A stretch of 64,000 nucleotides of DNA from an uncultured Clostridia bacterium. Its GTDB lineage: Bacteria; Acidobacteriota; Aminicenantia; UBA2199. The notes under the pieces were generated by a model that was given only the letters and a program-made list of their open reading frames with translations, did not search any database and was not told the DNA's origin. Location of the stretch: NCBI GenBank assembly GCA_964422395.1, contig CAYRAO010000001.1, positions 4,900-68,899 of the forward strand. Reading direction: 5' to 3'. Position 1 is the first letter of the stretch. The number at the start of each line of letters is the position of its first letter. Below are positions 598-37,239 of this stretch, piece by piece. Position numbers and translations under genes: made by a program.

Positions 598-1824
598 TTA
601 CATACTTTTTCGTAAGGCATCAATAACCTTCATTTTTCCTGCTACAAAAGCAGGATATATACCGACTACAACCGTAATAATAAACACAAATAACGGATAT
701 TTGATATATTGTCTGATATTCATAACGGGGAATATTTTTTCATGAATATATGCACCGGAAAGTTCTATTCCCCCATAATCGATTCCATACTTTAACAAAA
801 TGATACTTGCTACAAAACCTAATAAGATTCCGATCACACAACTGATAATCGCCAACCATCCCGCTTCAAATATAATCAGTTTCCTTAGGCCCGAAGGACG
901 TGTCCCAACCGCTTTTAGTATTCCGAATTCAAACATCCGTTCATATAGAGACATAAAAAGTGAGTTAATGATTCCGAATATAACAACAAGAAATAGGATT
1001 CCACCCATCATATAAAGAGATATATCGGTCATATCCAATACATTTTTTAACTCCGGCATTAACTCCGTCCAACTCGCCGCTTCATTTCCTTTCGTACTAT
1101 ACTTTTCCCAAAATATGTTTTTTTTATTCTCTGCAAATCTTAAATTGTTGAATTTAATGGCTATTTCATGAATTTCATCTCCGAGATTCAACATTTCCTG
1201 AGCCCTTTTCTTCCTTACAAAAATCATTCCGCTATCCATTTCCTTTACATTAAAACGGTAAATTCCGCTTATCCTAAACATCTCCTGCGATAAATCCCCG
1301 CTGAACGCTTGTGCCACGGTTACAACAACTCTATCACCTATGGAAACTTCAAGCACTTCGGACAGTTTACTACCTATAATAATTTCCCTGTTGCCGACAT
1401 TTCCAAAATAGGTCCCTTTATCAATTCTATCATCAATTTTTGAAAGATATTTATCCTTTTCTGGATCTATACCATAAAGTATTACTGATTCGGCTGTTAA
1501 CGGAGACGTAATCATTCCCAAAGATACAACTCTCTCACTAAATGATTGTACTTCCCGATCAGAATTAAGTTCTTTAATAACCTCATCCTTTTTTAAAATA
1601 GTTTTTTCCACATCCTGACTTATCCTGAAATTCTTGCTATGTATTTGAGCTTCTCCAAGTAATGTGGAAGTAGCCGAATTAACAAGATTGTTTTTCATCC
1701 CTATCATGAAAGCATCCGTAAGAATAAGGGATGCAAGTCCGACTCCTATTGCTATACTCGCAATAATGGTTCTCCTCTTATTTCTCAAAACATTTTTCCA
1801 TGCTAATTTTAGATAGAACTTCAT
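598..1824 (-). CDS. ABC transporter permease, LolC/E (FtsX/MacB) family
   Basis: N-terminal LAWKNVLRNKRRT plus TM helix, large periplasmic domain, ER-x-x-EFGILKAVG motif, three C-terminal TM helices. Confidence 0.9.
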   Translation of the reverse strand: MKFYLKLAWKNVLRNKRRTIIASIAIGVGLASLILTDAFMIGMKNNLVNSATSTLLGEAQIHSKNFRISQDVEKTILKKDEVIKELNSDREVQSFSERVVSLGMITSPLTAESVILYGIDPEKDKYLSKIDDRIDKGTYFGNVGNREIIIGSKLSEVLEVSIGDRVVVTVAQAFSGDLSQEMFRISGIYRFNVKEMDSGMIFVRKKRAQEMLNLGDEIHEIAIKFNNLRFAENKKNIFWEKYSTKGNEAASWTELMPELKNVLDMTDISLYMMGGILFLVVIFGIINSLFMSLYERMFEFGILKAVGTRPSGLRKLIIFEAGWLAIISCVIGILLGFVASIILLKYGIDYGGIELSGAYIHEKIFPVMNIRQYIKYPLFVFIITVVVGIYPAFVAGKMKVIDALRKSM

Positions 1825-1842
1825 TTTATCCTCCGATAGTGT

Positions 1843-3060
1843 TCAATATGTCCTCATAGCCTTCGACGGATCCGTCCTTGCTGCTTTTAATGCAGGGAAA
1901 AAACCCACAAAAGTAGCAGATAAAACAACAATAAATGCAGGGATAATAAAGCTTCTTAAATTTATCTCTGAAGTCATTTGGTGAAATTTCATTCCACCGT
2001 AGGTGATAGGTTCCGGTAGTGTAATACCATGTTTTGAGAAAATATAATTTATTGCCAATCCCGCAATTGAACCGAGAATAATACACAATAATGCGAGAAT
2101 ATTAATCTCCAAAAGTATTAATTTTATTATATCTCTCGGCTTTGTTCCCATAGCTTTCAGAACACCATATTCCCGCCTCCGTTCAAGTACCGACATAAGA
2201 ACGGTATTTAGTACACCTACCGCAACAACAAACATTATGATTAAAAGCATAACCCACATACCTGCTACATCAGCTTGCATAGCATCATAGAATGACTTTG
2301 CAAAAACCTGCCAGGGGACAACGGATAGTTTATCCGAATTTATCTTCTCCTTTATAACACCGTTCATGTCCTGCACACTCCCAAGACTTTTCACGGTAAC
2401 GGCAATTTCGTGAATCCTCCCTTTCAATACCAGTAGCTCCTGTGCCGTTTCAAGAGGAATATAAATTGTCATCCTATCTTCGAGTTCATTTCCGCTTCTT
2501 AACAATCCTATAATTCTATAAGAGTCATTTGCTATCGAACCGTCCGCACCTTGACTTACAACAATCAAATCTTCTCCCGGAGAGGCTTTTAACACCTTGG
2601 CAAGTCCCTCACCAACAATAACCTCATTTGCTGTCGGGGAACTAAACAAATTACCGGAAAAAACTTTCTTATCAAAATTTGTCGTCCGAATCTCTTTTTT
2701 CAAATCCAATCCCGTTATTTTCACACCAGAGCTTTTTTTACCAACCGATGCTATTCCTGCAGAATAAATTCTCGGTGAATAGGATTCCACGCCCTCTATT
2801 TCAGATAATTTTTTATACAATACTTTATAATCATCCACCGTCTTGTAAAGTGAAGGTTTATCAAGATACGATTTTTCATGAATCTGAATATGTCCTAAAT
2901 TGTTTCTTGTGAACATAGATATAATCTGATTATACGCTCCGTCCGAATATCCAATAAAAAAGCATGCTAAGAAAAAACCTCCGAACATACTTAGAGCCGT
3001 CAGTATACTTCTCCTTTTTTGTCTAAAAATATTTCTAAATGCAATCTTTAAAATAATCAT
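1843..3060 (-). CDS. ABC transporter permease, LolC/E (FtsX/MacB) family
   Basis: IAFRNIFRQKRRS, LERRREYGVLKAMG, same 4-TM layout; paralogue of the adjacent permease. Confidence 0.9.
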   Translation of the reverse strand: MIILKIAFRNIFRQKRRSILTALSMFGGFFLACFFIGYSDGAYNQIISMFTRNNLGHIQIHEKSYLDKPSLYKTVDDYKVLYKKLSEIEGVESYSPRIYSAGIASVGKKSSGVKITGLDLKKEIRTTNFDKKVFSGNLFSSPTANEVIVGEGLAKVLKASPGEDLIVVSQGADGSIANDSYRIIGLLRSGNELEDRMTIYIPLETAQELLVLKGRIHEIAVTVKSLGSVQDMNGVIKEKINSDKLSVVPWQVFAKSFYDAMQADVAGMWVMLLIIMFVVAVGVLNTVLMSVLERRREYGVLKAMGTKPRDIIKLILLEINILALLCIILGSIAGLAINYIFSKHGITLPEPITYGGMKFHQMTSEINLRSFIIPAFIVVLSATFVGFFPALKAARTDPSKAMRTY

Positions 3061-3061
3061 T

Positions 3062-3823
3062 TCAAATCCCTTTTCTTAAATTTCTCAAAGTAAATATTTT
3101 CTTGTCAAGTTTTATATCAAATTTTGCCTCTATGTAACGAATTATTGTTTTACGTCCTTTCTTTTTTGATGGGATCAGTTCCATAACCGAAGGGACTTCT
3201 CTTTTTCCATACATTTTTACATCTTTAAAATAAAGCTCTCTCATAAGATTCCCTTTTTCATCATAATATTTTTGCCAAACAGGAATATTCCTATCCTCCC
3301 TGACAGCAATTACAACATGTCCCCATATTATCGGTAATCCTTCCTTGGGAATGCATTTAACATAAGTATTCGATTCCTTTTCCCCTTTGATTTTAATTAT
3401 TTCAAAATCATAATCTTCAAGATAGGTATACTCTTTTACAAGATCATCATTTGTGAAATCGGATCCCATCCATGACCCCATCATCATTGAAGGAGGAATT
3501 TTCATTACTTTATTGGTTTTCGGAAGATAGTTCCACATCTCTCTGTTGATCTTTAAGGTAGCCATTCCTTTCTCCTTTTTCGGCTCAAGTATCCTCATAA
3601 ATGTTTTCTTTTTCCCCAAACTCCACGATTTGATCTTTAATTTCCTTTTCCAATGAGGAGTGATAATTTCCATTTCAAATAAACCGTAACTGGAACTACT
3701 CCTATACAGGTCATCTACCTTGTTCACAATCTCCCTTGCCCTCGCATTATCCTTAGCAGATAACGTTAAAATCATAAAACCGATTAAACACAAAAAAGCA
3801 AATATGGATTTAAAATTTTTCAT
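3062..3823 (-). CDS. Outer-membrane lipoprotein-sorting protein (LolA-like)
   Basis: Sec signal peptide; WMGSDFTNDD motif and FTLRNL C-terminus typical of the LolA_like family found with paired LolE-like permeases. Confidence 0.8.
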   Translation of the reverse strand: MKNFKSIFAFLCLIGFMILTLSAKDNARAREIVNKVDDLYRSSSSYGLFEMEIITPHWKRKLKIKSWSLGKKKTFMRILEPKKEKGMATLKINREMWNYLPKTNKVMKIPPSMMMGSWMGSDFTNDDLVKEYTYLEDYDFEIIKIKGEKESNTYVKCIPKEGLPIIWGHVVIAVREDRNIPVWQKYYDEKGNLMRELYFKDVKMYGKREVPSVMELIPSKKKGRKTIIRYIEAKFDIKLDKKIFTLRNLRKGI

Positions 3824-4458
3824 TTGGATTCCTCCTCATTTTTCGATATTGTTCCGACTCCTTCAAAAATTAAATTCACTATACTTTCCTCAATTTTTTC
3901 TACATTTATTATACTCTCGTTTAGTATCCATTGAACCATCACTCCGTCAAGCATTCCGATAAGAACACTTGAAAGCTCAAACGGGTCAATATTTTTTTTT
4001 ATACTTCCGTCTTCAATCCCTTCTTTTAAAACATCCGCCAAAAGAGATTTGTATAAGCCGTATAACTTATTCATCTCGTTTAGCATAAGACCTTTCCCTC
4101 CTCCCTTTATCCCTTCAGCCCAGAAATCAAACATCAGGTGCATGTTTTCACTGTTTCCGGGTTTCAATTGCTTTAATACAATGCTTATAATATTTTTTAA
4201 TTTCCCGAAACCGTTTTCTTTAGATAAAAGAAGAGTCTCCAAATCAACTTCCAAATCTTTTTGAAAATACCTGAATGAGCTATCGATTATTTCATTCTTA
4301 TTTTTAAAGTATTCATAAATAGTCCCTTTCCCGATTCCGGCTTTATCGGCAATATTTTGTATGGTTGCTTTGGAAAAACCCTTTTCTGAAAATTCGGATA
4401 AGGCAGCGAGAAGGATTTCTTCTCTTTTTTTTTCTTTGTCTATTTTTAATGCACACAT
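3820..4458 (-). CDS. TetR/AcrR family transcriptional regulator
   Basis: N-terminal HTH: ILLAALSEFSEKGFSKATIQNIADKAGIGKGTIYEYF. Confidence 0.95.
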   Translation of the reverse strand: MCALKIDKEKKREEILLAALSEFSEKGFSKATIQNIADKAGIGKGTIYEYFKNKNEIIDSSFRYFQKDLEVDLETLLLSKENGFGKLKNIISIVLKQLKPGNSENMHLMFDFWAEGIKGGGKGLMLNEMNKLYGLYKSLLADVLKEGIEDGSIKKNIDPFELSSVLIGMLDGVMVQWILNESIINVEKIEESIVNLIFEGVGTISKNEEESK

Positions 4459-4460
4459 TT

Positions 4461-4486
4461 TAATTGACCGACCGTTCGGTCAATTA
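4461..4486. promoter_or_regulatory. Putative TetR operator (11-bp perfect inverted repeat)
   Basis: TAATTGACCGA-CCGT-TCGGTCAATTA, located between the -10 box and the tetR ATG. Confidence 0.8.
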
Positions 4487-4487
4487 C

Positions 4488-4516
4488 AATATAGAATATT
4501 TATCTTGATTTGTCAA
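4488..4516 (-). promoter_or_regulatory. Sigma70-like promoter of the tetR-ABC operon
   Basis: TTGACA-N17-TATATT on the minus strand. Confidence 0.75.
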
Positions 4517-4594: not shown

Positions 4595-6136
4595 ATGAAA
4601 AGACGAGAATTTCTGAAAAAAACCGGATTATTAGTCAGTTACGGAATACTTAGTAGCACGTCACTAAAATCCGGTGAAACAAAAAAAACTAATATTGTAT
4701 ATATTCTGGCTGACGATTTGGGATACGGTGAATTGGGAGTATACGGTCAAAAAATAATCAAGACACCGAATATTGATAAATTGGCCAAAGAAGGGAAAGT
4801 TTTTACAAACCACTATTCGGGTGCACCGGTATGTGCTCCTTCGAGATGTGTTTTGTTGACCGGACTACACTCAGGTCATTCATATATAAGAGGAAATGAC
4901 GAATGGACGGAAAGGGGAGATGTTTGGGATTTTTCAGCAGCAAGTGAAAATATTCACCTTGAAGGACAGCGACCGATATCGGCTGATACCGTCACAATAG
5001 GAAAATTATTGCAACAGAGCGGATATAAAACGGCCTGCATAGGAAAATGGGGTTTAGGTCCTGAATATTCGGAAGGTTCTCCTAACAAACAAGGTTTCGA
5101 TCTCTTTTTCGGATACAACTGTCAAAGACAAGCCCATACTTACTACCCAAAACATCTGTGGAAGAACAATAAAAAAATACATTTAAAAAACAAACTCATT
5201 GAACCCGGTACACCATTAAAAAAAGGAAGTGATCCCAATGATCCGAAAAGTTATGAAAACTTTACTTTAAATGAATATTCACCTGATCTTATGAGCAGAG
5301 AAGCACTTAATTTTCTTGAGGAAAACAGATCGAATCCATTCTTTCTATACTATGCAACTCCCCTACCTCACCTGCCGTTACAAGCACCTAAAAAGCTTGT
5401 TGAGAAATACAGAAACATTATCGGAGATGAAAAACCCTATTCCGGTAAATACTATTTCCCATGTCAATATCCAAGAGCTACTTATGCTGCAATGATCTCT
5501 TATCTTGATACCGATGTTGGAAAAATCATCAAGAAGCTTAAAGATATAGGTGTATTTGAAAATACTTTAATAATTTTCACTTCAGATAACGGTCCCACTT
5601 ATACAGGTGGAGCTGATACGGAATTTTTTAACAGCGGAGGAATTTTCGGAGAAAAGTACGGACGGGGTAAAGGTTTTCTTCATGAAGGTGGGATCAGAGT
5701 GCCGATGATAGCAAGCTGGCAAGGGAAAATCAAACCAGGAACCAGTACCGATCATATCTCCGCTTTTTACGATGTTCTGCCGACTTTATGTGATGTCGCC
5801 GGAAAAAAGATACCCAAGATTTCGGATGGGATAAGTTTCTTACCAACTCTTCTCAACAGAGGTAAACAGCAAAATCATCAATCTCTATACTGGGAATTCC
5901 CGTCATATGGCGGTCAGCAAGCGGTTAGAATGGGTAAATGGAAAGGAATTAGAAAAAATATTTTCAAAGGAAACAAAAAGATCGAATTGTACGACCTGAG
6001 TAAAGATCCGTCCGAGACTTATGATGTTTCGCAAAAGAACAAGGAAATTGTAAAAAAAATAAGCATAATAATGGATAAAGAACATATACCTGCAAAGCTT
6101 AAGAAATTTAAGTTCAAGCAACTTGGAGATAAATAG
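4595..6136 (+). CDS. Arylsulfatase (Cys-type, formylglycine-dependent), Tat-exported
   Basis: Twin-arginine signal MKRREFLK; ILADDLGYG; CAPSR (CxPxR) motif; GKWGLG; SDNG. Confidence 0.95.
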   Translation: MKRREFLKKTGLLVSYGILSSTSLKSGETKKTNIVYILADDLGYGELGVYGQKIIKTPNIDKLAKEGKVFTNHYSGAPVCAPSRCVLLTGLHSGHSYIRGNDEWTERGDVWDFSAASENIHLEGQRPISADTVTIGKLLQQSGYKTACIGKWGLGPEYSEGSPNKQGFDLFFGYNCQRQAHTYYPKHLWKNNKKIHLKNKLIEPGTPLKKGSDPNDPKSYENFTLNEYSPDLMSREALNFLEENRSNPFFLYYATPLPHLPLQAPKKLVEKYRNIIGDEKPYSGKYYFPCQYPRATYAAMISYLDTDVGKIIKKLKDIGVFENTLIIFTSDNGPTYTGGADTEFFNSGGIFGEKYGRGKGFLHEGGIRVPMIASWQGKIKPGTSTDHISAFYDVLPTLCDVAGKKIPKISDGISFLPTLLNRGKQQNHQSLYWEFPSYGGQQAVRMGKWKGIRKNIFKGNKKIELYDLSKDPSETYDVSQKNKEIVKKISIIMDKEHIPAKLKKFKFKQLGDK

Positions 6137-6142
6137 GTATCA

Positions 6143-8062
6143 ATGCCGCTTTTTGTCAATAAGACACTGATAACAGATCAGGAAATAAAAACCGAAACGG
6201 GTTATATGAGAGCTGAGTATGCGAAAACTTTCCCTGATCAAAGTATACAAGAGCAAGAGAAAACCTTATTTAACTGGGCATTGGAAAATATTACGGAACG
6301 GGTACTTTTAAAAGAGTACGCTCTTAAAACAATTTCTATTTCGGAGGATGAACTCAAGGAGAATACGGATGGAGTTCAATCAAAAATCGACAAATTAATC
6401 ATTCAAATAAAAAAAGAAGCTCCATTAGTAACTGAAAAAGAAGTAAAGGATTACTATAAAGAAAACAAAAATAAATTTATGATTTCTGAAAAAAGGCACG
6501 TTAAGCACATAGTCAAACATCCGACAAAAAAATCATTAAGTGAGATCAATAAAATTTATGATTTAATGAAGAAAGCTGAGGAGGAACTTAAAGACGGAGT
6601 AAGTTTTGAAAAGGTAGGTGGTAAGTATTCGGATTGTTCGGGAAACGGGTTGGATTTGGGTTATATTTCTATAGGTGAGATGGTGGAAGCATTTGAAAAT
6701 ACGGTATTTTCACTTAAAAAAAACGAAACATCTGAAATATTTGAAACGGAATTCGGATTTCATATCGCTAAGGTATATGACATATCGCCTCCGAAAATTG
6801 CACCATTTGAACAGGTTAGTGAGCAAATATTAAAAGAATTACAGGAAGAAAGGACAGAAAAATATATTGAAGATTTTGTAGATAAATTAAAATCGGATTC
6901 GAATATAAAATATATTAACCCTAAAAATATGGTTAAAAGTGCTAAAATCGGTTTCACTTTTACAAAACCCTTGAATTTTTTACTTATAAAGCCATCCGGA
7001 CCGGATTGTAATATCTCATGCGACTATTGCTTTTATTTAAAAAAGGGAAAACTGTTTAATTCCGGTAAAAAAAGGATGAATTTGAAAACAGTCGAGAAAA
7101 TGATAAAGCAGGCAGCGGAACAAAGCATTGAAAGCATTAATATCGGATGGCAGGGTGGAGAACCGTTATTGATGGGACTGGATTTTTTTAAAGAAGTTAT
7201 GAAATTTCAGAAAAAATACGGTCAAGATAGATTTACTAACAGTATTCAAACAAACGGAATTCTATTAAATAAAGATTGGGCAATGTTTTTTAAGAACAAC
7301 AAATTCTTGGTCGGATTATCAATTGACGGAAACAAAAATGTTCATGATAAGTATCGCAGAGACTCATCCGATAACGGCACGTTCAAAAGAGTTGAACATT
7401 CCGCAAAACTACTTCTCAAAAGCGGAGTTGAAGTAAACTCACTTTCCGTAGTTAACGATCATTCCTCAGAGTACATTGAAGAAACTTATACTTTTCTAAA
7501 AGGAATCGGATTTACCCATATGCAGTTCATTCCGGTCGTAGATATTGATCCTGTAACCGATAAAATAAGCAAATTTTCCGTTGATCCAAAGAAATACGGG
7601 GAATTTTTATCGAATCTGTTCGATATGTGGAAAAAAGATTTCTCAAACGGGAAACCGAATATTTATATCAGATTTTTCGAATCGGTTTTTTACACTTATT
7701 TGGGGATGGAATCACCCGACTGCAATTTAATGTCCGAATGCGGTAAATATTTGGTAGTCGAACACAACGGGGATATTTATCCCTGTGATTTTTTTGTTGA
7801 CCCAAAACAGAAACTTGGCAATCTAAATAAGGATAATTTATTGGAGTTGCTCAACTCGGAAAAACAAAATAAATTCGGAAAAGTAAAAAAAAATCTTCCG
7901 GCAAAGTGTGAAAAATGCAAATGGGTATCAAAATGTTTCGACGATTGCCCGAAGAATAGAATGATGACAGGGGAAAAAATTTCATATCTTTGTGAAGGAT
8001 ACAAAATGTTTTTTGAGCATGCGGACAAAGATTTTAAAAAATTTGCCAACAATTTGAGATAA
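6143..8062 (+). CDS. Fusion protein: parvulin/PrsA-NifM-like peptidyl-prolyl isomerase plus anaerobic sulfatase maturase (radical SAM/SPASM)
   Basis: aa ~1-260: rotamase motifs HVKHIV, DLGYI, ETEFGFHIAKV. aa ~275-639: CNISCDYC, WQGGEPLL, QTNG, SIDG, SPASM cysteines (C..C..GDIYPCD; CEKCKWVSKCFDDCPKNR; YLCEGY). One ORF with no internal stop. Confidence 0.9.
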   Translation: MPLFVNKTLITDQEIKTETGYMRAEYAKTFPDQSIQEQEKTLFNWALENITERVLLKEYALKTISISEDELKENTDGVQSKIDKLIIQIKKEAPLVTEKEVKDYYKENKNKFMISEKRHVKHIVKHPTKKSLSEINKIYDLMKKAEEELKDGVSFEKVGGKYSDCSGNGLDLGYISIGEMVEAFENTVFSLKKNETSEIFETEFGFHIAKVYDISPPKIAPFEQVSEQILKELQEERTEKYIEDFVDKLKSDSNIKYINPKNMVKSAKIGFTFTKPLNFLLIKPSGPDCNISCDYCFYLKKGKLFNSGKKRMNLKTVEKMIKQAAEQSIESINIGWQGGEPLLMGLDFFKEVMKFQKKYGQDRFTNSIQTNGILLNKDWAMFFKNNKFLVGLSIDGNKNVHDKYRRDSSDNGTFKRVEHSAKLLLKSGVEVNSLSVVNDHSSEYIEETYTFLKGIGFTHMQFIPVVDIDPVTDKISKFSVDPKKYGEFLSNLFDMWKKDFSNGKPNIYIRFFESVFYTYLGMESPDCNLMSECGKYLVVEHNGDIYPCDFFVDPKQKLGNLNKDNLLELLNSEKQNKFGKVKKNLPAKCEKCKWVSKCFDDCPKNRMMTGEKISYLCEGYKMFFEHADKDFKKFANNLR

Positions 8063-35895: not shown

Positions 35896-37239
35896 ATGAA
35901 AAAAATAATTCTAATTGTTATGCTTGGCATATTTTGTTTAACAATACATTCAAAAGAAACCGATCCGAAAAATATAATAATAATATCAGTTGACACATTA
36001 AGAGCTGACCATTTGAGCTGTAACGGATATCCGATAAAAACTTCTCCTGAAATAGATAAGTTCTCGAAAGATTCAATTAGGTTTTCCAATTGTTTTACCG
36101 TTACACCTCTCACTGCTCCCGCTTTTTCATCAATGTTAACTTCACTCCCTCCCCACAAACACGGAGCAAAAAGAAACGGATTATCGGTTTTCAGCCACAT
36201 CCATACACTACCATGGCATTTAAAAAAATATGGTTATACCTCTTCGGCTTTTATATCAAACTGGCCTTTAAGAAAAAAGCTGTCTCAGCTACACAAAGAT
36301 TTTGATTCGTACTACGAGATATTCACAAGGAAAAGATATCATGGATTATTCAATGATGAGAGTACGGCTGTTGATGTCAACTTGAAAGTTGAAAAATGGT
36401 TGGACGAAAATTATAAAAAAAAGATGTTCCTATGGATTCATTATTCGGATCCACATGCTAAATATATCTTTCACACAAAATATAATTTTGAATATAAAAA
36501 GGAGAACAAATCATACTATCCACCGAAAACAAGATTTAAGAAAATAAGGAAATATGATAGTGAAATTGCCTTTACGGATTTCCATATCGGATTGCTGATC
36601 AAAAAACTAAAAAAATTAAATTTATATAACGACTCATTAATAATCTTTATTTCGGATCACGGGGAAAGCTTTGGAGAACATAAATACTTCAAGCACGGAA
36701 AAAAGTTGTTTAATTCAACTCTTCATGTTCCTCTTATTGTTAAACTACCTAATAATCGTTTAAAAAACACCGTCATTGACAACAATGTCTCAATCTTAGA
36801 TATATCACCTACAATTCTTTCCGTTTTAAATTTACCGATCCCGGAAAATATGGAGGGAACTTCAATATTCGAAAAAAACAGGGGAAAACCGATCTTTTTT
36901 GAAACTTACAAAGGGACAGTACTATTTAGACGGAGTAATATCAAGTTTCACAACAAAGTTCATCCGATAAAGCATGGGATTCTACTCGGTAATTCCAAGA
37001 TCATCCATTCGAGAAAATCAGGTGAACTTAAAATTTTTAATATTAAGAACGATATTTTTGAATTACAAGATTTGTATGTAAAAAATTCAAATGAGTATAA
37101 AAAATTAAAACTTTTGTTGGTCAATTATGTCAAAAGTATTAATAAATATATAAAATACTCAAGAAAATACTTTAAGCAAAATTCGAAGTTGTCACAAGAA
37201 GACATTCAGAAACTAAAGAGTCTGGGATATATTGATTAA
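35896..37239 (+). CDS. Exported sulfatase-fold (alkaline phosphatase superfamily) enzyme with Thr at the nucleophile position
   Basis: Signal peptide; ISVDTLRADH, PLTAPAF in place of CxPxR, HYSDPH, SDHGE, DISPT. Confidence 0.8.
   Translation: MKKIILIVMLGIFCLTIHSKETDPKNIIIISVDTLRADHLSCNGYPIKTSPEIDKFSKDSIRFSNCFTVTPLTAPAFSSMLTSLPPHKHGAKRNGLSVFSHIHTLPWHLKKYGYTSSAFISNWPLRKKLSQLHKDFDSYYEIFTRKRYHGLFNDESTAVDVNLKVEKWLDENYKKKMFLWIHYSDPHAKYIFHTKYNFEYKKENKSYYPPKTRFKKIRKYDSEIAFTDFHIGLLIKKLKKLNLYNDSLIIFISDHGESFGEHKYFKHGKKLFNSTLHVPLIVKLPNNRLKNTVIDNNVSILDISPTILSVLNLPIPENMEGTSIFEKNRGKPIFFETYKGTVLFRRSNIKFHNKVHPIKHGILLGNSKIIHSRKSGELKIFNIKNDIFELQDLYVKNSNEYKKLKLLLVNYVKSINKYIKYSRKYFKQNSKLSQEDIQKLKSLGYID

What the first reader, a model, noticed from the sequence alone, without database searches (positions are those of the whole stretch)
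4595..8062. Parvulin PPIase fused to an anaerobic sulfatase maturase, coupled to a Tat arylsulfatase
Seen: one 639-aa ORF joins a signal-less PrsA/NifM-like chaperone-rotamase (aa ~1-260) to a complete radical SAM/SPASM anSME. It starts 6 nt after a CAPSR-type sulfatase carrying a twin-arginine signal. Known: anSMEs (AtsB/ChuR/AslB type) convert the Cys of CxPxR to formylglycine on unfolded sulfatase; Tat exports folded proteins; NifM is a parvulin dedicated to maturing one client. I do not know of a described PPIase-anSME fusion. Inference: a dedicated modify-then-fold machine that holds the sulfatase, installs FGly, then isomerises a proline (possibly the P of CxPxR) before Tat export. This is the strongest candidate for an undescribed system in the window.
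Basis: partly seen in the sequence, partly recalled or inferred. Interest (0 to 1): 0.82.

Follow-up and report, generated by a model that had tools for sequence, protein, structure and literature searches.

The report
Chaperone fused to anaerobic sulfatase maturase
A real, conserved and apparently undescribed enzyme in uncultured anaerobic bacteria joins a cytoplasmic PrsA/SurA-type folding helper to the radical-SAM enzyme that activates sulfatases, which suggests that the unfolded sulfatase is held while its catalytic residue is installed.

Summary
Window 4595-6136 encodes a Cys-type (CAPSR) S1_20-like sulfatase with a KRREFLKK twin-arginine motif. Six nucleotides later, 6143-8062 encodes a 639-aa signal-less protein. 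It consists of a PrsA/SurA-like helical chaperone module with an inserted parvulin (aa 1-255), a disordered linker, and a complete anSME (aa 279-639; TIGR03942 421 bits against a cutoff of 349).

The fusion is not a lost stop codon. The identical protein occurs on four independently assembled contigs. More than 50 clusters at 40-56% identity share the architecture (Marinimicrobia/Fidelibacterota, KSB1, Ignavibacteria, Lentisphaeria and others).

Three related arrangements also exist:
- two-gene (split) operons;
- one reversed-order fusion;
- fusions that lost the parvulin at least three times but kept the chaperone helices.

- The helical chaperone arm is the constant partner. The prolyl isomerase is accessory, although its catalytic residues are intact here.
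- Most fused homologues are not next to any sulfatase, so they act as a genome's general maturase.
- Tat-signal sulfatases also sit beside plain anSMEs, so the Tat link is consistent but not specific.
- The N-domain comes from a wider family of standalone cytoplasmic parvulin chaperones.

No paper describing the fusion was found. I rate it a new variant of a known kind, of moderate to high interest.

The parts
4595..6136 (+). Cys-type formylglycine sulfatase (513 aa), S1_20-like and probably an exo 3-O-sulfo-galactose sulfatase; the likely client of the maturase
   Evidence: Pfam Sulfatase 1.1e-58. E 2.4e-182 (about 60% identity by eye) to PDB 7ANA, a Bacteroides thetaiotaomicron sulfatase from the colonic-mucin sulfatase study. 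It carries the S1_20 signature C-Q-R-Q-A-H-T-Y-Y-P quoted in that paper (read).
4595..4678 (+). Twin-arginine-type signal peptide region (aa 1-28; RREFLK at aa 3-8, then the weakly hydrophobic stretch TGLLVSYGILSSTSL)
   Evidence: Read from the translation. It is the only ORF of at least 120 aa in the 64-kb window with RRxF[LIVM] in its first 45 residues. Homology to the mature 7ANA chain starts at aa 29. HMM models of Tat signals give no hit.
4832..4846 (+). C80-A-P-S-R84, the CxPxR formylglycine motif; C80 is the residue to be oxidised
   Evidence: Direct reading. It aligns to S-A-P-A-R of the Ser-type Bacteroides homologue 7ANA.
6137..6142 (+). 6-nt spacer between the sulfatase stop codon and the maturase start codon (probable translational coupling)
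   Evidence: Sequence. No terminator-like site lies between the two genes.
6143..8062 (+). Chaperone-parvulin-anSME fusion gene (639 aa, no signal peptide)
6143..6427 (+). N-terminal arm of the SurA_N/PrsA-type helical chaperone module (aa 1-95; invariant E18, W45, N49, E52)
   Evidence: AF2 model: short N-terminal strands (aa 3-10), then helices 12-29, 35-63, 68-73 and 77-92. Homologues carry Pfam SurA_N_2/3. Foldseek finds SurA, PEB4/Cj1289, PrsA, HP0175 and YacD. This part is retained in the parvulin-less fusions.
6428..6787 (+). Parvulin (PpiC-type) PPIase domain, aa 96-215, with an intact catalytic set (H122, C165, T202, H207) and proline pocket (L172, M180, F184)
   Evidence: Pfam Rotamase, Rotamase_2 and Rotamase_3. 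Alignments to E. coli Par10 (1JNS) and PrsA (6XD8). The residues are invariant or at least 90% conserved in 52 fused homologues.
6788..6907 (+). C-terminal long helix (aa 216-255; invariant D247) that completes the chaperone module
   Evidence: AF2 helix 222-251. Aligns to the C-terminal helix of HP0175 and PrsA. Retained in most parvulin-less fusions.
6908..6976 (+). Flexible, poorly conserved linker (aa 256-278); contains the non-conserved in-frame Met263 (ATG at 6929)
   Evidence: pLDDT below 50 at aa 265-270. Variable length and sequence in the alignment.
6977..8059 (+). Complete anaerobic sulfatase-maturating enzyme (radical SAM + SPASM), aa 279-639
   Evidence: TIGR03942 420.7 bits, above the 349.45 cutoff. 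4K37 2e-73 over the whole chain. Foldseek 4K39, TM-score 0.92 on the target.
7007..7030 (+). C289-x3-C293-x2-C296 radical-SAM [4Fe-4S] motif
   Evidence: Invariant in 52 homologues. Aligns to the CxxxCxxC of anSMEcpe.
7721..7993 (+). SPASM region with the eight auxiliary-cluster cysteines (C527, C533, C548, C589, C592, C598, C602, C617) and D549, the equivalent of the anSMEcpe 'CDF' aspartate
   Evidence: All invariant. Aligned to anSMEcpe. The numbering of anSMEcpe ligands and the role of Asp277 are from memory of Goldman et al. 2013, which I could not read.

Best explanation
The 639-aa protein is a bifunctional cytoplasmic maturase. An ATP-independent PrsA/SurA-type holdase (helical N+C module with an inserted, probably active parvulin) is joined by a flexible linker to a fully competent anSME.

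Proposed mechanism:
1. The chaperone arm captures newly made, still unfolded sulfatase. Here that is the co-transcribed Tat-motif S1_20 sulfatase; in most relatives it is all sulfatases of the genome.
2. It delays folding or aggregation and raises the local concentration of the CxPxR segment at the radical-SAM active site.
3. Cys80 is oxidised to formylglycine before the active site becomes buried.
4. The client is then released, folds (with the parvulin possibly speeding prolyl-limited steps) and is exported.

What is shown: the domain identities, intact catalytic and cluster residues, conservation of the fusion, the fused/split/reversed arrangements, repeated loss of the parvulin with retention of the helical arm, and the flexible linker.

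What is inferred: holdase action on sulfatase, the order of events, PPIase activity and its target, and export by Tat.
For: - Domains and residues.
- Conserved architecture in more than 50 clusters across several phyla and in GTDB species representatives. The identical protein occurs in 4 assemblies.
- Gene-fusion logic: four true two-gene operons with an N-domain gene followed by an anSME gene, with gaps of -1 to 84 nt, in Lentisphaera (two), Ignavibacteria and Calditrichota. One reversed-order fusion, anSME followed by chaperone (P0082).
- The helical arm is the constant part. Twelve parvulin-less fusions keep HMM positions 1-140, and most also keep 255-295. The losses are independent: the anSME core of P0057 is 89% identical to full fusions, and that of L017 is 79%.
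- Flexible tether rather than a rigid complex: the linker is disordered and pTM is 0.62 despite a mean pLDDT of 87. No fused-specific conserved residues occur in the anSME core.
- Context: a 6-nt gap to a Cys-type sulfatase in the window. Sulfatase clusters lie next to fused or split genes in L009, L014 and L084.
- 35 of 53 fused relatives also end in a SecA-type SEC-C zinc motif. In SecA this domain binds SecB and ribosomes (bioRxiv 10.1101/613315), which fits capture of nascent clients.
- Established knowledge: the FGly target residue must be modified before the sulfatase folds.
Against: - No experiment and no complex model were available.
- Plain anSMEs without any nearby chaperone gene serve Tat-motif and other sulfatases in 65 loci, so the chaperone is not required in general.
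- The closest standalone relatives of the N-domain in Planctomycetota sit in a housekeeping context (thyA-X-nrdR) with no anSME nearby. The module is therefore not intrinsically sulfatase-specific.
- The reversed-order fusion rests on one 4.4-kb MAG contig.
- The window protein lacks the SEC-C tail.
- A quick NJ tree does not resolve whether the fusion arose once or several times.
Confidence: 0.62

Rival explanations
1. The protein is a machine dedicated to the neighbouring sulfatase. It installs FGly, then uses the parvulin to isomerise a specific proline (the P of CxPxR) as an obligatory step before Tat export.
For: - The parvulin catalytic residues and proline pocket are invariant or nearly so in 52 fusions.
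- The target motif contains an invariant proline.
- All 11 complete FGly sulfatases beside fused or split genes carry RRxF[LIVM].
- There is a 6-nt gap to the sulfatase.
Against: - The parvulin was deleted at least three times independently while the helical arm stayed.
- 10 of 13 fused loci have no sulfatase within the available flanks.
- Tat-motif sulfatases are common beside plain anSMEs; p = 0.26 per locus.
- Nothing identifies the CxPxR proline as the substrate.
Confidence: 0.13
2. The chaperone-parvulin works on the maturase itself, not on the sulfatase. It would be an intramolecular foldase or stabiliser for a three-cluster Fe-S enzyme, in the way NifM is needed for the Fe-S protein NifH.
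For: - Weak similarity to NifM (60 bits) alongside PrsA models.
- anSME carries three [4Fe-4S] clusters and conserved prolines such as the GGEP motif.
- The standalone family members are general cytoplasmic proteins.
Against: - The NifM score is far below its 168-bit cutoff.
- Most anSMEs, including the crystallised anSMEcpe, fold without such a domain.
- The parvulin is dispensable in several lineages.
- No fused-specific adaptation of the anSME core was found.
Confidence: 0.1
3. The fusion is mechanistically neutral. Two co-expressed cytoplasmic genes (a general parvulin chaperone and anSME) merged by loss of a stop codon and persist without direct cooperation.
For: - Split operons with gaps of -1 to 8 nt exist, so fusion is one mutation away.
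- The linker is unconserved and flexible.
- There is no co-adapted interface.
Against: - The arrangement is kept at 40-56% identity across several phyla.
- Adjacency, fusion and one reversed fusion recur.
- The helical arm is selectively retained when the parvulin is lost.
Confidence: 0.12
4. Artefact: a sequencing or assembly error removed a stop codon, and there are really two genes.
For: An in-frame ATG exists at 6929. One relative (L011) does carry a frameshift that splits its fusion.
Against: - The identical ORF appears in 4 independent assemblies.
- More than 50 diverged full-length homologues exist.
- M263 is not conserved.
Confidence: 0.01

Closest known systems
anSME (AtsB / ChuR / anSMEcpe; TIGR03942; PDB 4K36-4K39)
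   Same: The C-terminal 360 aa are a full-length member. They score above the equivalog cutoff, align end to end (E 2e-73, TM 0.92), and keep the CxxxCxxC motif, all eight SPASM cysteines and the CDF aspartate. A Cys-type CxPxR sulfatase lies next door.
   Different: Characterised anSMEs are single-module proteins of about 370-410 aa. This one carries a 260-aa chaperone-parvulin at its N-terminus, and most relatives add a SEC-C zinc tail, which this one lacks.
PrsA / SurA / PEB4 (Cbf2) / HP0175 / PpiD-type foldases (helical N+C chaperone module with inserted parvulin)
   Same: Same domain order and fold: N helices, parvulin, C helix. Homologues carry SurA_N Pfam domains. As in SurA, the chaperone arm seems to matter more than the PPIase (the SurA point is established knowledge).
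   Different: Those proteins are extracytoplasmic (periplasm or lipoprotein). This module has no signal peptide, is cytoplasmic, and is covalently joined to an enzyme. It scores far below every curated PrsA/SurA/PpiD cutoff.
Standalone cytoplasmic SurA_N-parvulin proteins of about 285 aa ('peptidylprolyl isomerase' of Planctomycetota and others)
   Same: 34-41% identical over 97-99% of the N-domain, with the same 'M.L.VNGE.I' start, the same invariant residues and no signal peptide.
   Different: They are separate genes in a conserved housekeeping neighbourhood (thyA, ribE, pdxA, ksgA, nrdR) with no anSME nearby. As far as I could find they are uncharacterised.
NifM (parvulin accessory protein of the nitrogenase Fe protein)
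   Same: A cytoplasmic parvulin with an N-terminal helical extension that serves a particular client.
   Different: TIGR02933 scores 60 bits against a cutoff of 168. There is no nif context. It is not a member.
RRE/PqqD-type substrate-recognition domains of SPASM peptide maturases, and Tat 'REMP' chaperones (TorD, DmsD, NapD)
   Same: The likeness is functional only: an appended or partner module that holds the substrate for a cytoplasmic maturation step before release or export.
   Different: No sequence or fold relationship was detected. Binding to a leader or signal peptide is untested.
SecA C-terminal metal-binding domain (SEC-C motif) and AscA/YecA
   Same: Many relatives, fused or plain, end in N-D-P-C-P-C-G-S-G-K-K-Y-K-K-C-C-G. 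In SecA this domain binds SecB and ribosomes (bioRxiv 10.1101/613315).
   Different: The motif is absent from the window protein. Its role on a radical-SAM enzyme is unknown.

Membership tests
anSME (TIGR03942 equivalog) | Whole-protein HMM score above the curated cutoff | tested here: met
   420.7 bits against a 349.45 cutoff, aa 280-635, model positions 2-361 of 363.
anSME (TIGR03942 equivalog) | CxxxCxxC radical-SAM cluster motif | tested here: met
   C289, C293 and C296 are invariant in 52 homologues and align to anSMEcpe.
anSME (TIGR03942 equivalog) | SPASM domain with cysteines for two auxiliary [4Fe-4S] clusters, and the C-D-F aspartate | tested here: met
   C527, 533, 548, 589, 592, 598, 602, 617 and D549 are invariant. 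Pfam SPASM 4e-12. Fold TM-score 0.92 to 4K39.
anSME (TIGR03942 equivalog) | Genomic association with a C/SxPxR sulfatase | tested here: met
   A CAPSR sulfatase ends 6 nt upstream.
anSME (TIGR03942 equivalog) | Oxidation of Cys/Ser to formylglycine, dependent on SAM and a reductant | not testable with these tools
   Needs an anaerobic enzyme assay.
Parvulin PPIase (PF00639) | Domain HMM above the gathering score | tested here: met
   Rotamase 62.6 bits (cutoff 21.7), Rotamase_3 60.8, Rotamase_2 57.8.
Parvulin PPIase (PF00639) | Catalytic His / Cys(Asp) / Thr(Ser) / His set and the Leu-Met-Phe proline pocket | tested here: met
   H122, C165, T202, H207, L172, M180 and F184 are conserved. They align to the Par10 and PrsA motifs. 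The assignment of roles is from knowledge of Pin1 and Par10.
Parvulin PPIase (PF00639) | Measured cis-trans isomerase activity | not testable with these tools
   Needs a protease-coupled or NMR exchange assay.
PrsA/SurA-type chaperone | Helical N+C module flanking the parvulin (fold) | tested here: met
   AF2 helices 12-92 and 222-251. Foldseek hits to SurA, PEB4/Cj1289, PrsA, HP0175 and YacD, E 1e-10 to 1e-7. phmmer 6VJ4 aa 54-262 and 3RFW aa 21-256.
PrsA/SurA-type chaperone | Curated equivalog score (PrsA, SurA, PpiD) | tested here: not met
   Best is 75 bits against a 303 cutoff. SurA scores 23.5 against 394, PpiD 45 against 493.
PrsA/SurA-type chaperone | Extracytoplasmic location (signal peptide, lipobox or membrane anchor) | tested here: not met
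   The protein starts MPLFVNK with no hydrophobic leader. M1 is invariant in homologues.
NifM | TIGR02933 equivalog score and nif context | tested here: not met
   60.1 bits against 168.2. The neighbours are TetR, an ABC transporter, folE and RNase Y.
Tat substrate (the sulfatase) | (S/T)-R-R-x-F-L-K motif followed by a weakly hydrophobic h-region | tested here: met
   K-R-R-E-F-L-K then TGLLVSYGILSSTSL. The same motif is on all neighbouring sulfatases in L009, L014 and L084.
Tat substrate (the sulfatase) | Recognition by Tat-signal profile models | tested here: inconclusive
   No Pfam hit. In NCBIfam only a chance-level TatB_1 hit (E 0.031) on the 50-aa N-terminus. Such short models are often filtered out.
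Tat substrate (the sulfatase) | TatA/TatC present in the genome; export dependent on Tat | not testable with these tools
   No TatA-like ORF in the 64-kb window. The rest of the genome is not available.
S1_20 sulfatase subfamily | [quoted passage not shown] | tested here: met
   C-Q-R-Q-A-H-T-Y-Y-P is present. The signature is quoted from bioRxiv 10.1101/2020.11.20.392076. E 2.4e-182 to 7ANA and 1.2e-99 to 7AN1.

The most novel reading that the evidence does not exclude
The chaperone arm, fused or encoded just upstream and often paired with a ribosome/SecB-binding SEC-C tail on the maturase, is a new kind of export-proofreading chaperone. It would seize nascent sulfatase at the ribosome, or by its twin-arginine signal, and block folding and Tat targeting until the radical-SAM domain has installed formylglycine. 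That would be the first 'REMP-like' quality-control step for a post-translational residue modification rather than for cofactor insertion. It would also be built from a PrsA/SurA fold working in the cytoplasm.
Probability: 0.2. Interest if true: 0.8.

Novelty: new variant of a known kind. Interest (0 to 1): 0.6.

Why it matters
Formylglycine must be made on an unfolded sulfatase, yet how bacterial anSMEs gain access to their clients before these fold (for Tat) or are exported (for Sec) is not known. A conserved covalent or operonic pairing of anSME with a holdase-type chaperone points to a concrete answer and supplies natural constructs to test it: full-length, parvulin-less, split and SEC-C-tailed forms.

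The lineages involved (Marinimicrobia/Fidelibacterota, KSB1, Ignavibacteria, Calditrichota, Lentisphaerae) are major anaerobic degraders of sulfated glycans. The finding therefore bears on marine and sediment carbon and sulfur turnover, and on producing active recombinant sulfatases. It also brings to notice a large, uncharacterised family of cytoplasmic SurA/PrsA-like parvulin chaperones.

Tried and rejected
1. Lost stop codon or misassembly. Rejected.
2. A conserved internal start at M263 giving a separate anSME. The Met is not conserved.
3. Tat-specificity of the fusion. 11 of 11 sulfatase genes at fused/split loci have the motif against 19 of 32 at plain loci. Fisher p = 0.019 per gene, but the genes are clustered, and p = 0.26 per locus. 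Not discriminating.
4. A co-adapted docking surface. No anSME-core position is at least 80% conserved in the 71 fused sequences and at most 35% in the 54 plain ones.
5. Single origin of the fusion. The NJ tree of 130 anSME cores intermixes fused and plain clades and is unresolved.
6. Standalone N-domain homologues as dedicated anSME partners. Rejected for Planctomycetota, where they sit in a housekeeping context.
7. Profile confirmation of the Tat signal. No usable hit.
8. TatA in the window. None found.
9. A second anSME client in the window. The sulfatase-fold ORF at 35896-37239 has no C/SxPxR motif.
10. A riboswitch or other known RNA near the operon. Rfam finds only three tRNAs in the window.
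11. Literature. No paper combines anSME with parvulin, PPIase, SurA or rotamase terms, with twin-arginine, or with the SEC-C motif. The anSMEcpe structure paper could not be opened, so the conformation of the CxPxR proline in the enzyme-bound peptide remains unchecked.

Full report
**1. Observation**

Window 4595..6136 (+) and 6143..8062 (+) are two long ORFs separated by six nucleotides.

The first ORF (513 aa) is a formylglycine-type sulfatase.
- Pfam Sulfatase scores 1.1e-58.
- The motif C80-A-P-S-R84 is present.
- The N-terminus reads M-K-R-R-E-F-L-K-K, followed by a weakly hydrophobic stretch.
- It has E 2.4e-182 (about 60% identity by eye) to PDB 7ANA and 1.2e-99 to 7AN1. Both are Bacteroides thetaiotaomicron structures from the colonic-mucin sulfatase study.
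- It carries that paper's S1_20 signature, C-Q-R-Q-A-H-T-Y-Y-P.
- It is therefore most likely an exo 3-O-sulfo-galactose sulfatase. The Bacteroides enzyme is Ser-type (S-A-P-A-R); the window enzyme is Cys-type.

The second ORF (639 aa) has no signal peptide.
- It contains a parvulin domain (aa 122-212, 7e-17), Radical_SAM and SPASM.
- TIGR03942 'anaerobic sulfatase maturase' matches aa 280-635 at 420.7 bits, above its 349.45 cutoff.
- Against the PDB, aa 276-638 align to the entire anSMEcpe chain (2e-73). aa 21-262 align to PrsA, HP0175 and Cbf2-type foldases.

**2. The fusion is real**

- The identical 639-aa protein is called on four independently assembled contigs from different sources.
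- A search of 5.8 billion proteins finds more than 50 clusters at 40-56% identity. They cover 99-100% of the query with the same Rotamase + Radical_SAM + SPASM set. Where sources name them, they come from Marinimicrobia/Fidelibacterota, KSB1 and Ignavibacteria, always under the plain name 'anaerobic sulfatase maturase'.
- In an alignment of 52 fused proteins the start Met is invariant. So are the CxxxCxxC motif, all eight SPASM cysteines and the C-D-F aspartate. The parvulin residues H122, C165, T202, H207 and the pocket L172, M180, F184 are invariant or at least 90% conserved. They align to the Par10 and PrsA motifs.
- The in-frame Met263 lies in a variable linker and is not conserved.

**3. 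Anatomy**

The AlphaFold2 model has mean pLDDT 87 and pTM 0.62. It shows:
- short N-terminal strands and helices (aa 3-92);
- the parvulin;
- a long helix (aa 222-251);
- a disordered stretch (aa 265-270, pLDDT below 50);
- a domain that superposes on anSMEcpe (TM-score 0.92 on the target).

The N-half finds SurA, PEB4/Cj1289, PrsA, HP0175 and YacD. The N-terminal 255 residues are thus a complete PrsA/SurA-type 'N+C chaperone module with inserted parvulin', but a cytoplasmic one. They reach no curated equivalog cutoff: PrsA 75 against 303, NifM 60 against 168, SurA 23.5 against 394.

**4. Evidence from relatives on what matters**

(a) Split forms. In four species representatives (Lentisphaera twice, Ignavibacteria, Calditrichota) a 276-290-aa homologue of the N-domain is a separate gene directly upstream of a plain anSME. 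It lies on the same strand, with gaps of -1 to 84 nt. A fifth case (L011) is a frameshifted fusion. A sixth (L015) is divergently adjacent.

(b) A reversed form. P0082 (666 aa) has the anSME first and the chaperone-parvulin second. It is seen on a single 4.4-kb MAG contig.

(c) Parvulin-less forms. Eleven clusters and locus L017 keep the N-terminal helices, and most also keep the C-terminal helix, but lack the parvulin. Their anSME cores are up to 89% identical to those of full fusions and fall in at least three separate groups. The parvulin was therefore lost repeatedly while the helical arm was kept.

(d) Flexible tether. No position of the anSME core is conserved specifically in fused proteins. 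This agrees with a flexible tether rather than a fixed interface.

(e) The SEC-C tail. Thirty-five of 53 fused and 24 of 54 plain relatives end in a SecA-type SEC-C zinc motif, N-D-P-C-P-C-G-S-G-K-K-Y-K-K-C-C-G. In SecA this domain binds SecB and ribosomes (bioRxiv 10.1101/613315). The window protein lacks it.

(f) Origin of the N-domain. It belongs to a much larger family. An exhaustive phmmer search gives 80 representatives at E < 1e-30. Most are standalone, signal-less proteins of 250-290 aa with the same 'M.L.VNGE.I' start. In Planctomycetota these sit in a conserved housekeeping neighbourhood (thyA, ribE, pdxA, ksgA, nrdR) with no anSME nearby. The fusion thus recruited a general cytoplasmic chaperone.

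**5. Context**

In the window the pair looks like a two-gene operon.
- There is a GGAG 8 nt before the sulfatase start.
- No terminator-like site lies between the genes.
- Upstream and divergent is a TetR-family gene heading a lipoprotein/MacB-type ABC operon. Downstream are folE, ymdB, RNase Y and zapA.

Tight linkage to a sulfatase is the exception among relatives.
- A sulfatase is nearby only in the window, in L009 (two sulfatases) and in L084 (five sulfatases, in a very abundant Marinimicrobia lineage).
- Ten other fused loci have none within the available flanks, which are mostly 10 kb but cut short at contig ends in L003 and L007.
- The protein is therefore normally the genome's general maturase.

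**6. The Tat question**

Every complete FGly sulfatase next to a fused or split gene has RRxF[LIVM] (11 of 11). This includes two that also carry a T9SS C-terminal domain. But 19 of 32 sulfatases next to plain anSMEs, mainly in Ignavibacteria, have it too.
- Per gene the contrast gives p = 0.019, but the genes are clustered.
- Per locus it gives p = 0.26.

Cytoplasmic anSME maturation followed by Tat export thus seems common in these lineages and does not need the chaperone. The Tat assignment rests on the motif alone. No tat gene is in the window.

**7. Most likely mechanism**

The protein is most likely a tethered holdase-maturase (confidence about 0.6).
- The helical arm binds unfolded sulfatase and keeps the CxPxR segment available to the radical-SAM site.
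- The parvulin adds client binding or speeds prolyl-limited folding after release.
- The modified enzyme then folds and is exported, here probably by Tat.

Shown: the domains, the residues, the conservation, the fused/split/reversed/parvulin-less series and the flexible linker. Inferred: client binding, the order of events, isomerase activity and its target, and the export route.

Rivals:
- the strict 'isomerise the CxPxR proline for one dedicated client' model (about 0.13);
- a foldase acting on the Fe-S maturase itself (about 0.10);
- a neutral fusion (about 0.12);
- an artefact (about 0.01).

**8. Comparison and novelty**

- The C-terminal half is a member of the anSME family by every sequence test.
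- The N-terminal half works like PrsA/SurA but fails their curated cutoffs and their extracytoplasmic location.
- It is not NifM.
- Likeness to RRE domains or to Tat REMP chaperones is functional only.
- Full-text searches found no paper linking anSME to a parvulin or PPIase, to twin-arginine signals, or to SEC-C motifs. Databases label these proteins simply as anSME.

I rate it a new variant of a known kind, with interest 0.6. The finding is genuine, widespread and testable, but it is an elaboration of a known maturation step rather than a new kind of system.

Noticed in passing
relatives P0007-P0053 and many plain anSMEs (e.g. P0069, P0096); loci L005, L007, L012, L013, L016: A SecA-type SEC-C zinc motif (NDPCPCGSGKKYKKCCG) forms the extreme C-terminus of 35 of 53 fused and 24 of 54 plain anSMEs among the closest hits. 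The window protein lacks it. In SecA the motif binds SecB and ribosomes, which hints at co-translational or pre-export docking of the maturase.
   Followed up: partly
L083 710-2710 (P0082): A reversed-order fusion, anSME first and chaperone-parvulin second, on one 4.4-kb MAG contig (GCA_025490955.1). This is a single observation; recurrence was not checked.
   Followed up: partly
P0055-P0066; L017 10001-11767: Fusions that keep the helical chaperone arm but lack the parvulin. There were at least three independent losses; the anSME core of P0057 is 89% identical to those of full-length fusions.
   Followed up: yes
L090, L091, L093 (gene at 6001-6858 in each): A large family of standalone, signal-less SurA_N-parvulin proteins of about 285 aa in Planctomycetota. 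It sits in a conserved thyA / X / nrdR neighbourhood with ribE, pdxA and ksgA. It appears to be an uncharacterised cytoplasmic chaperone family.
   Followed up: partly
L084 13545-15332 and 15346-17178: Two Cys-type sulfatases carry both a strict twin-arginine motif at the N-terminus and a T9SS Por_Secre_tail C-terminal domain. That implies Tat export followed by type IX secretion, an unusual combination.
   Followed up: no
L084 1428-5984; L086 12353-13615: Sulfate-assimilation and sulfotransfer genes (ATP sulfurylase, PAPS reductase-like, two arylsulfotransferases) lie beside the fused maturase in a Marinimicrobia locus. An ATP sulfurylase lies directly after it in a KSB1 locus.
   Followed up: no
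L095 11993-12268; L097 12123-12488; L086 9431-9997; L095 9163-9723: Recurrent small neighbours of the fused gene: a Cupin_3 gene immediately downstream (two loci) and a DUF3267 gene shortly upstream (two loci: 3 nt away in L086, about 280 nt away in L095 with a small S4_2 gene between). Large BcrAD_BadFG/DUF2229 activase-like genes also lie nearby in L086 and L087.
   Followed up: no
window 4457-4490: A 15-nt-arm inverted repeat (ATTTTAATTGACCGA / TCGGTCAATTACAAT, 4-nt spacer) overlaps the start of the divergent TetR-family gene, about 105 nt upstream of the sulfatase start. It is a candidate TetR operator that could control either or both divergent units. A strong TTGACA-17-TATATT promoter-like site lies on the minus strand at 4516-4488.
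   Followed up: partly
window 35896-37239 (+): A sulfatase-fold (alkaline-phosphatase superfamily) protein of 447 aa with a Sec-type leader but no C/SxPxR motif. It is therefore not a client of the maturase.
   Followed up: partly
window 598-4458 (-): An operon of a TetR regulator, a TP_0789-like (LolA-like) lipoprotein and two MacB-type FtsX permeases. An ABC ATPase lies just beyond the window start, as seen in L001. The operon is divergent from the sulfatase operon.
   Followed up: no
L011 2785-4561: This species representative carries the fused gene broken by a frameshift inside the GPDCN radical-SAM motif. It is either an assembly error or a pseudogene.
   Followed up: partly
L016 10831-12081 = P0096: An anSME listed as 'plain' in the protein search is in fact preceded by a separate N-domain gene. 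Protein-only surveys will therefore undercount chaperone-associated anSMEs.
   Followed up: partly
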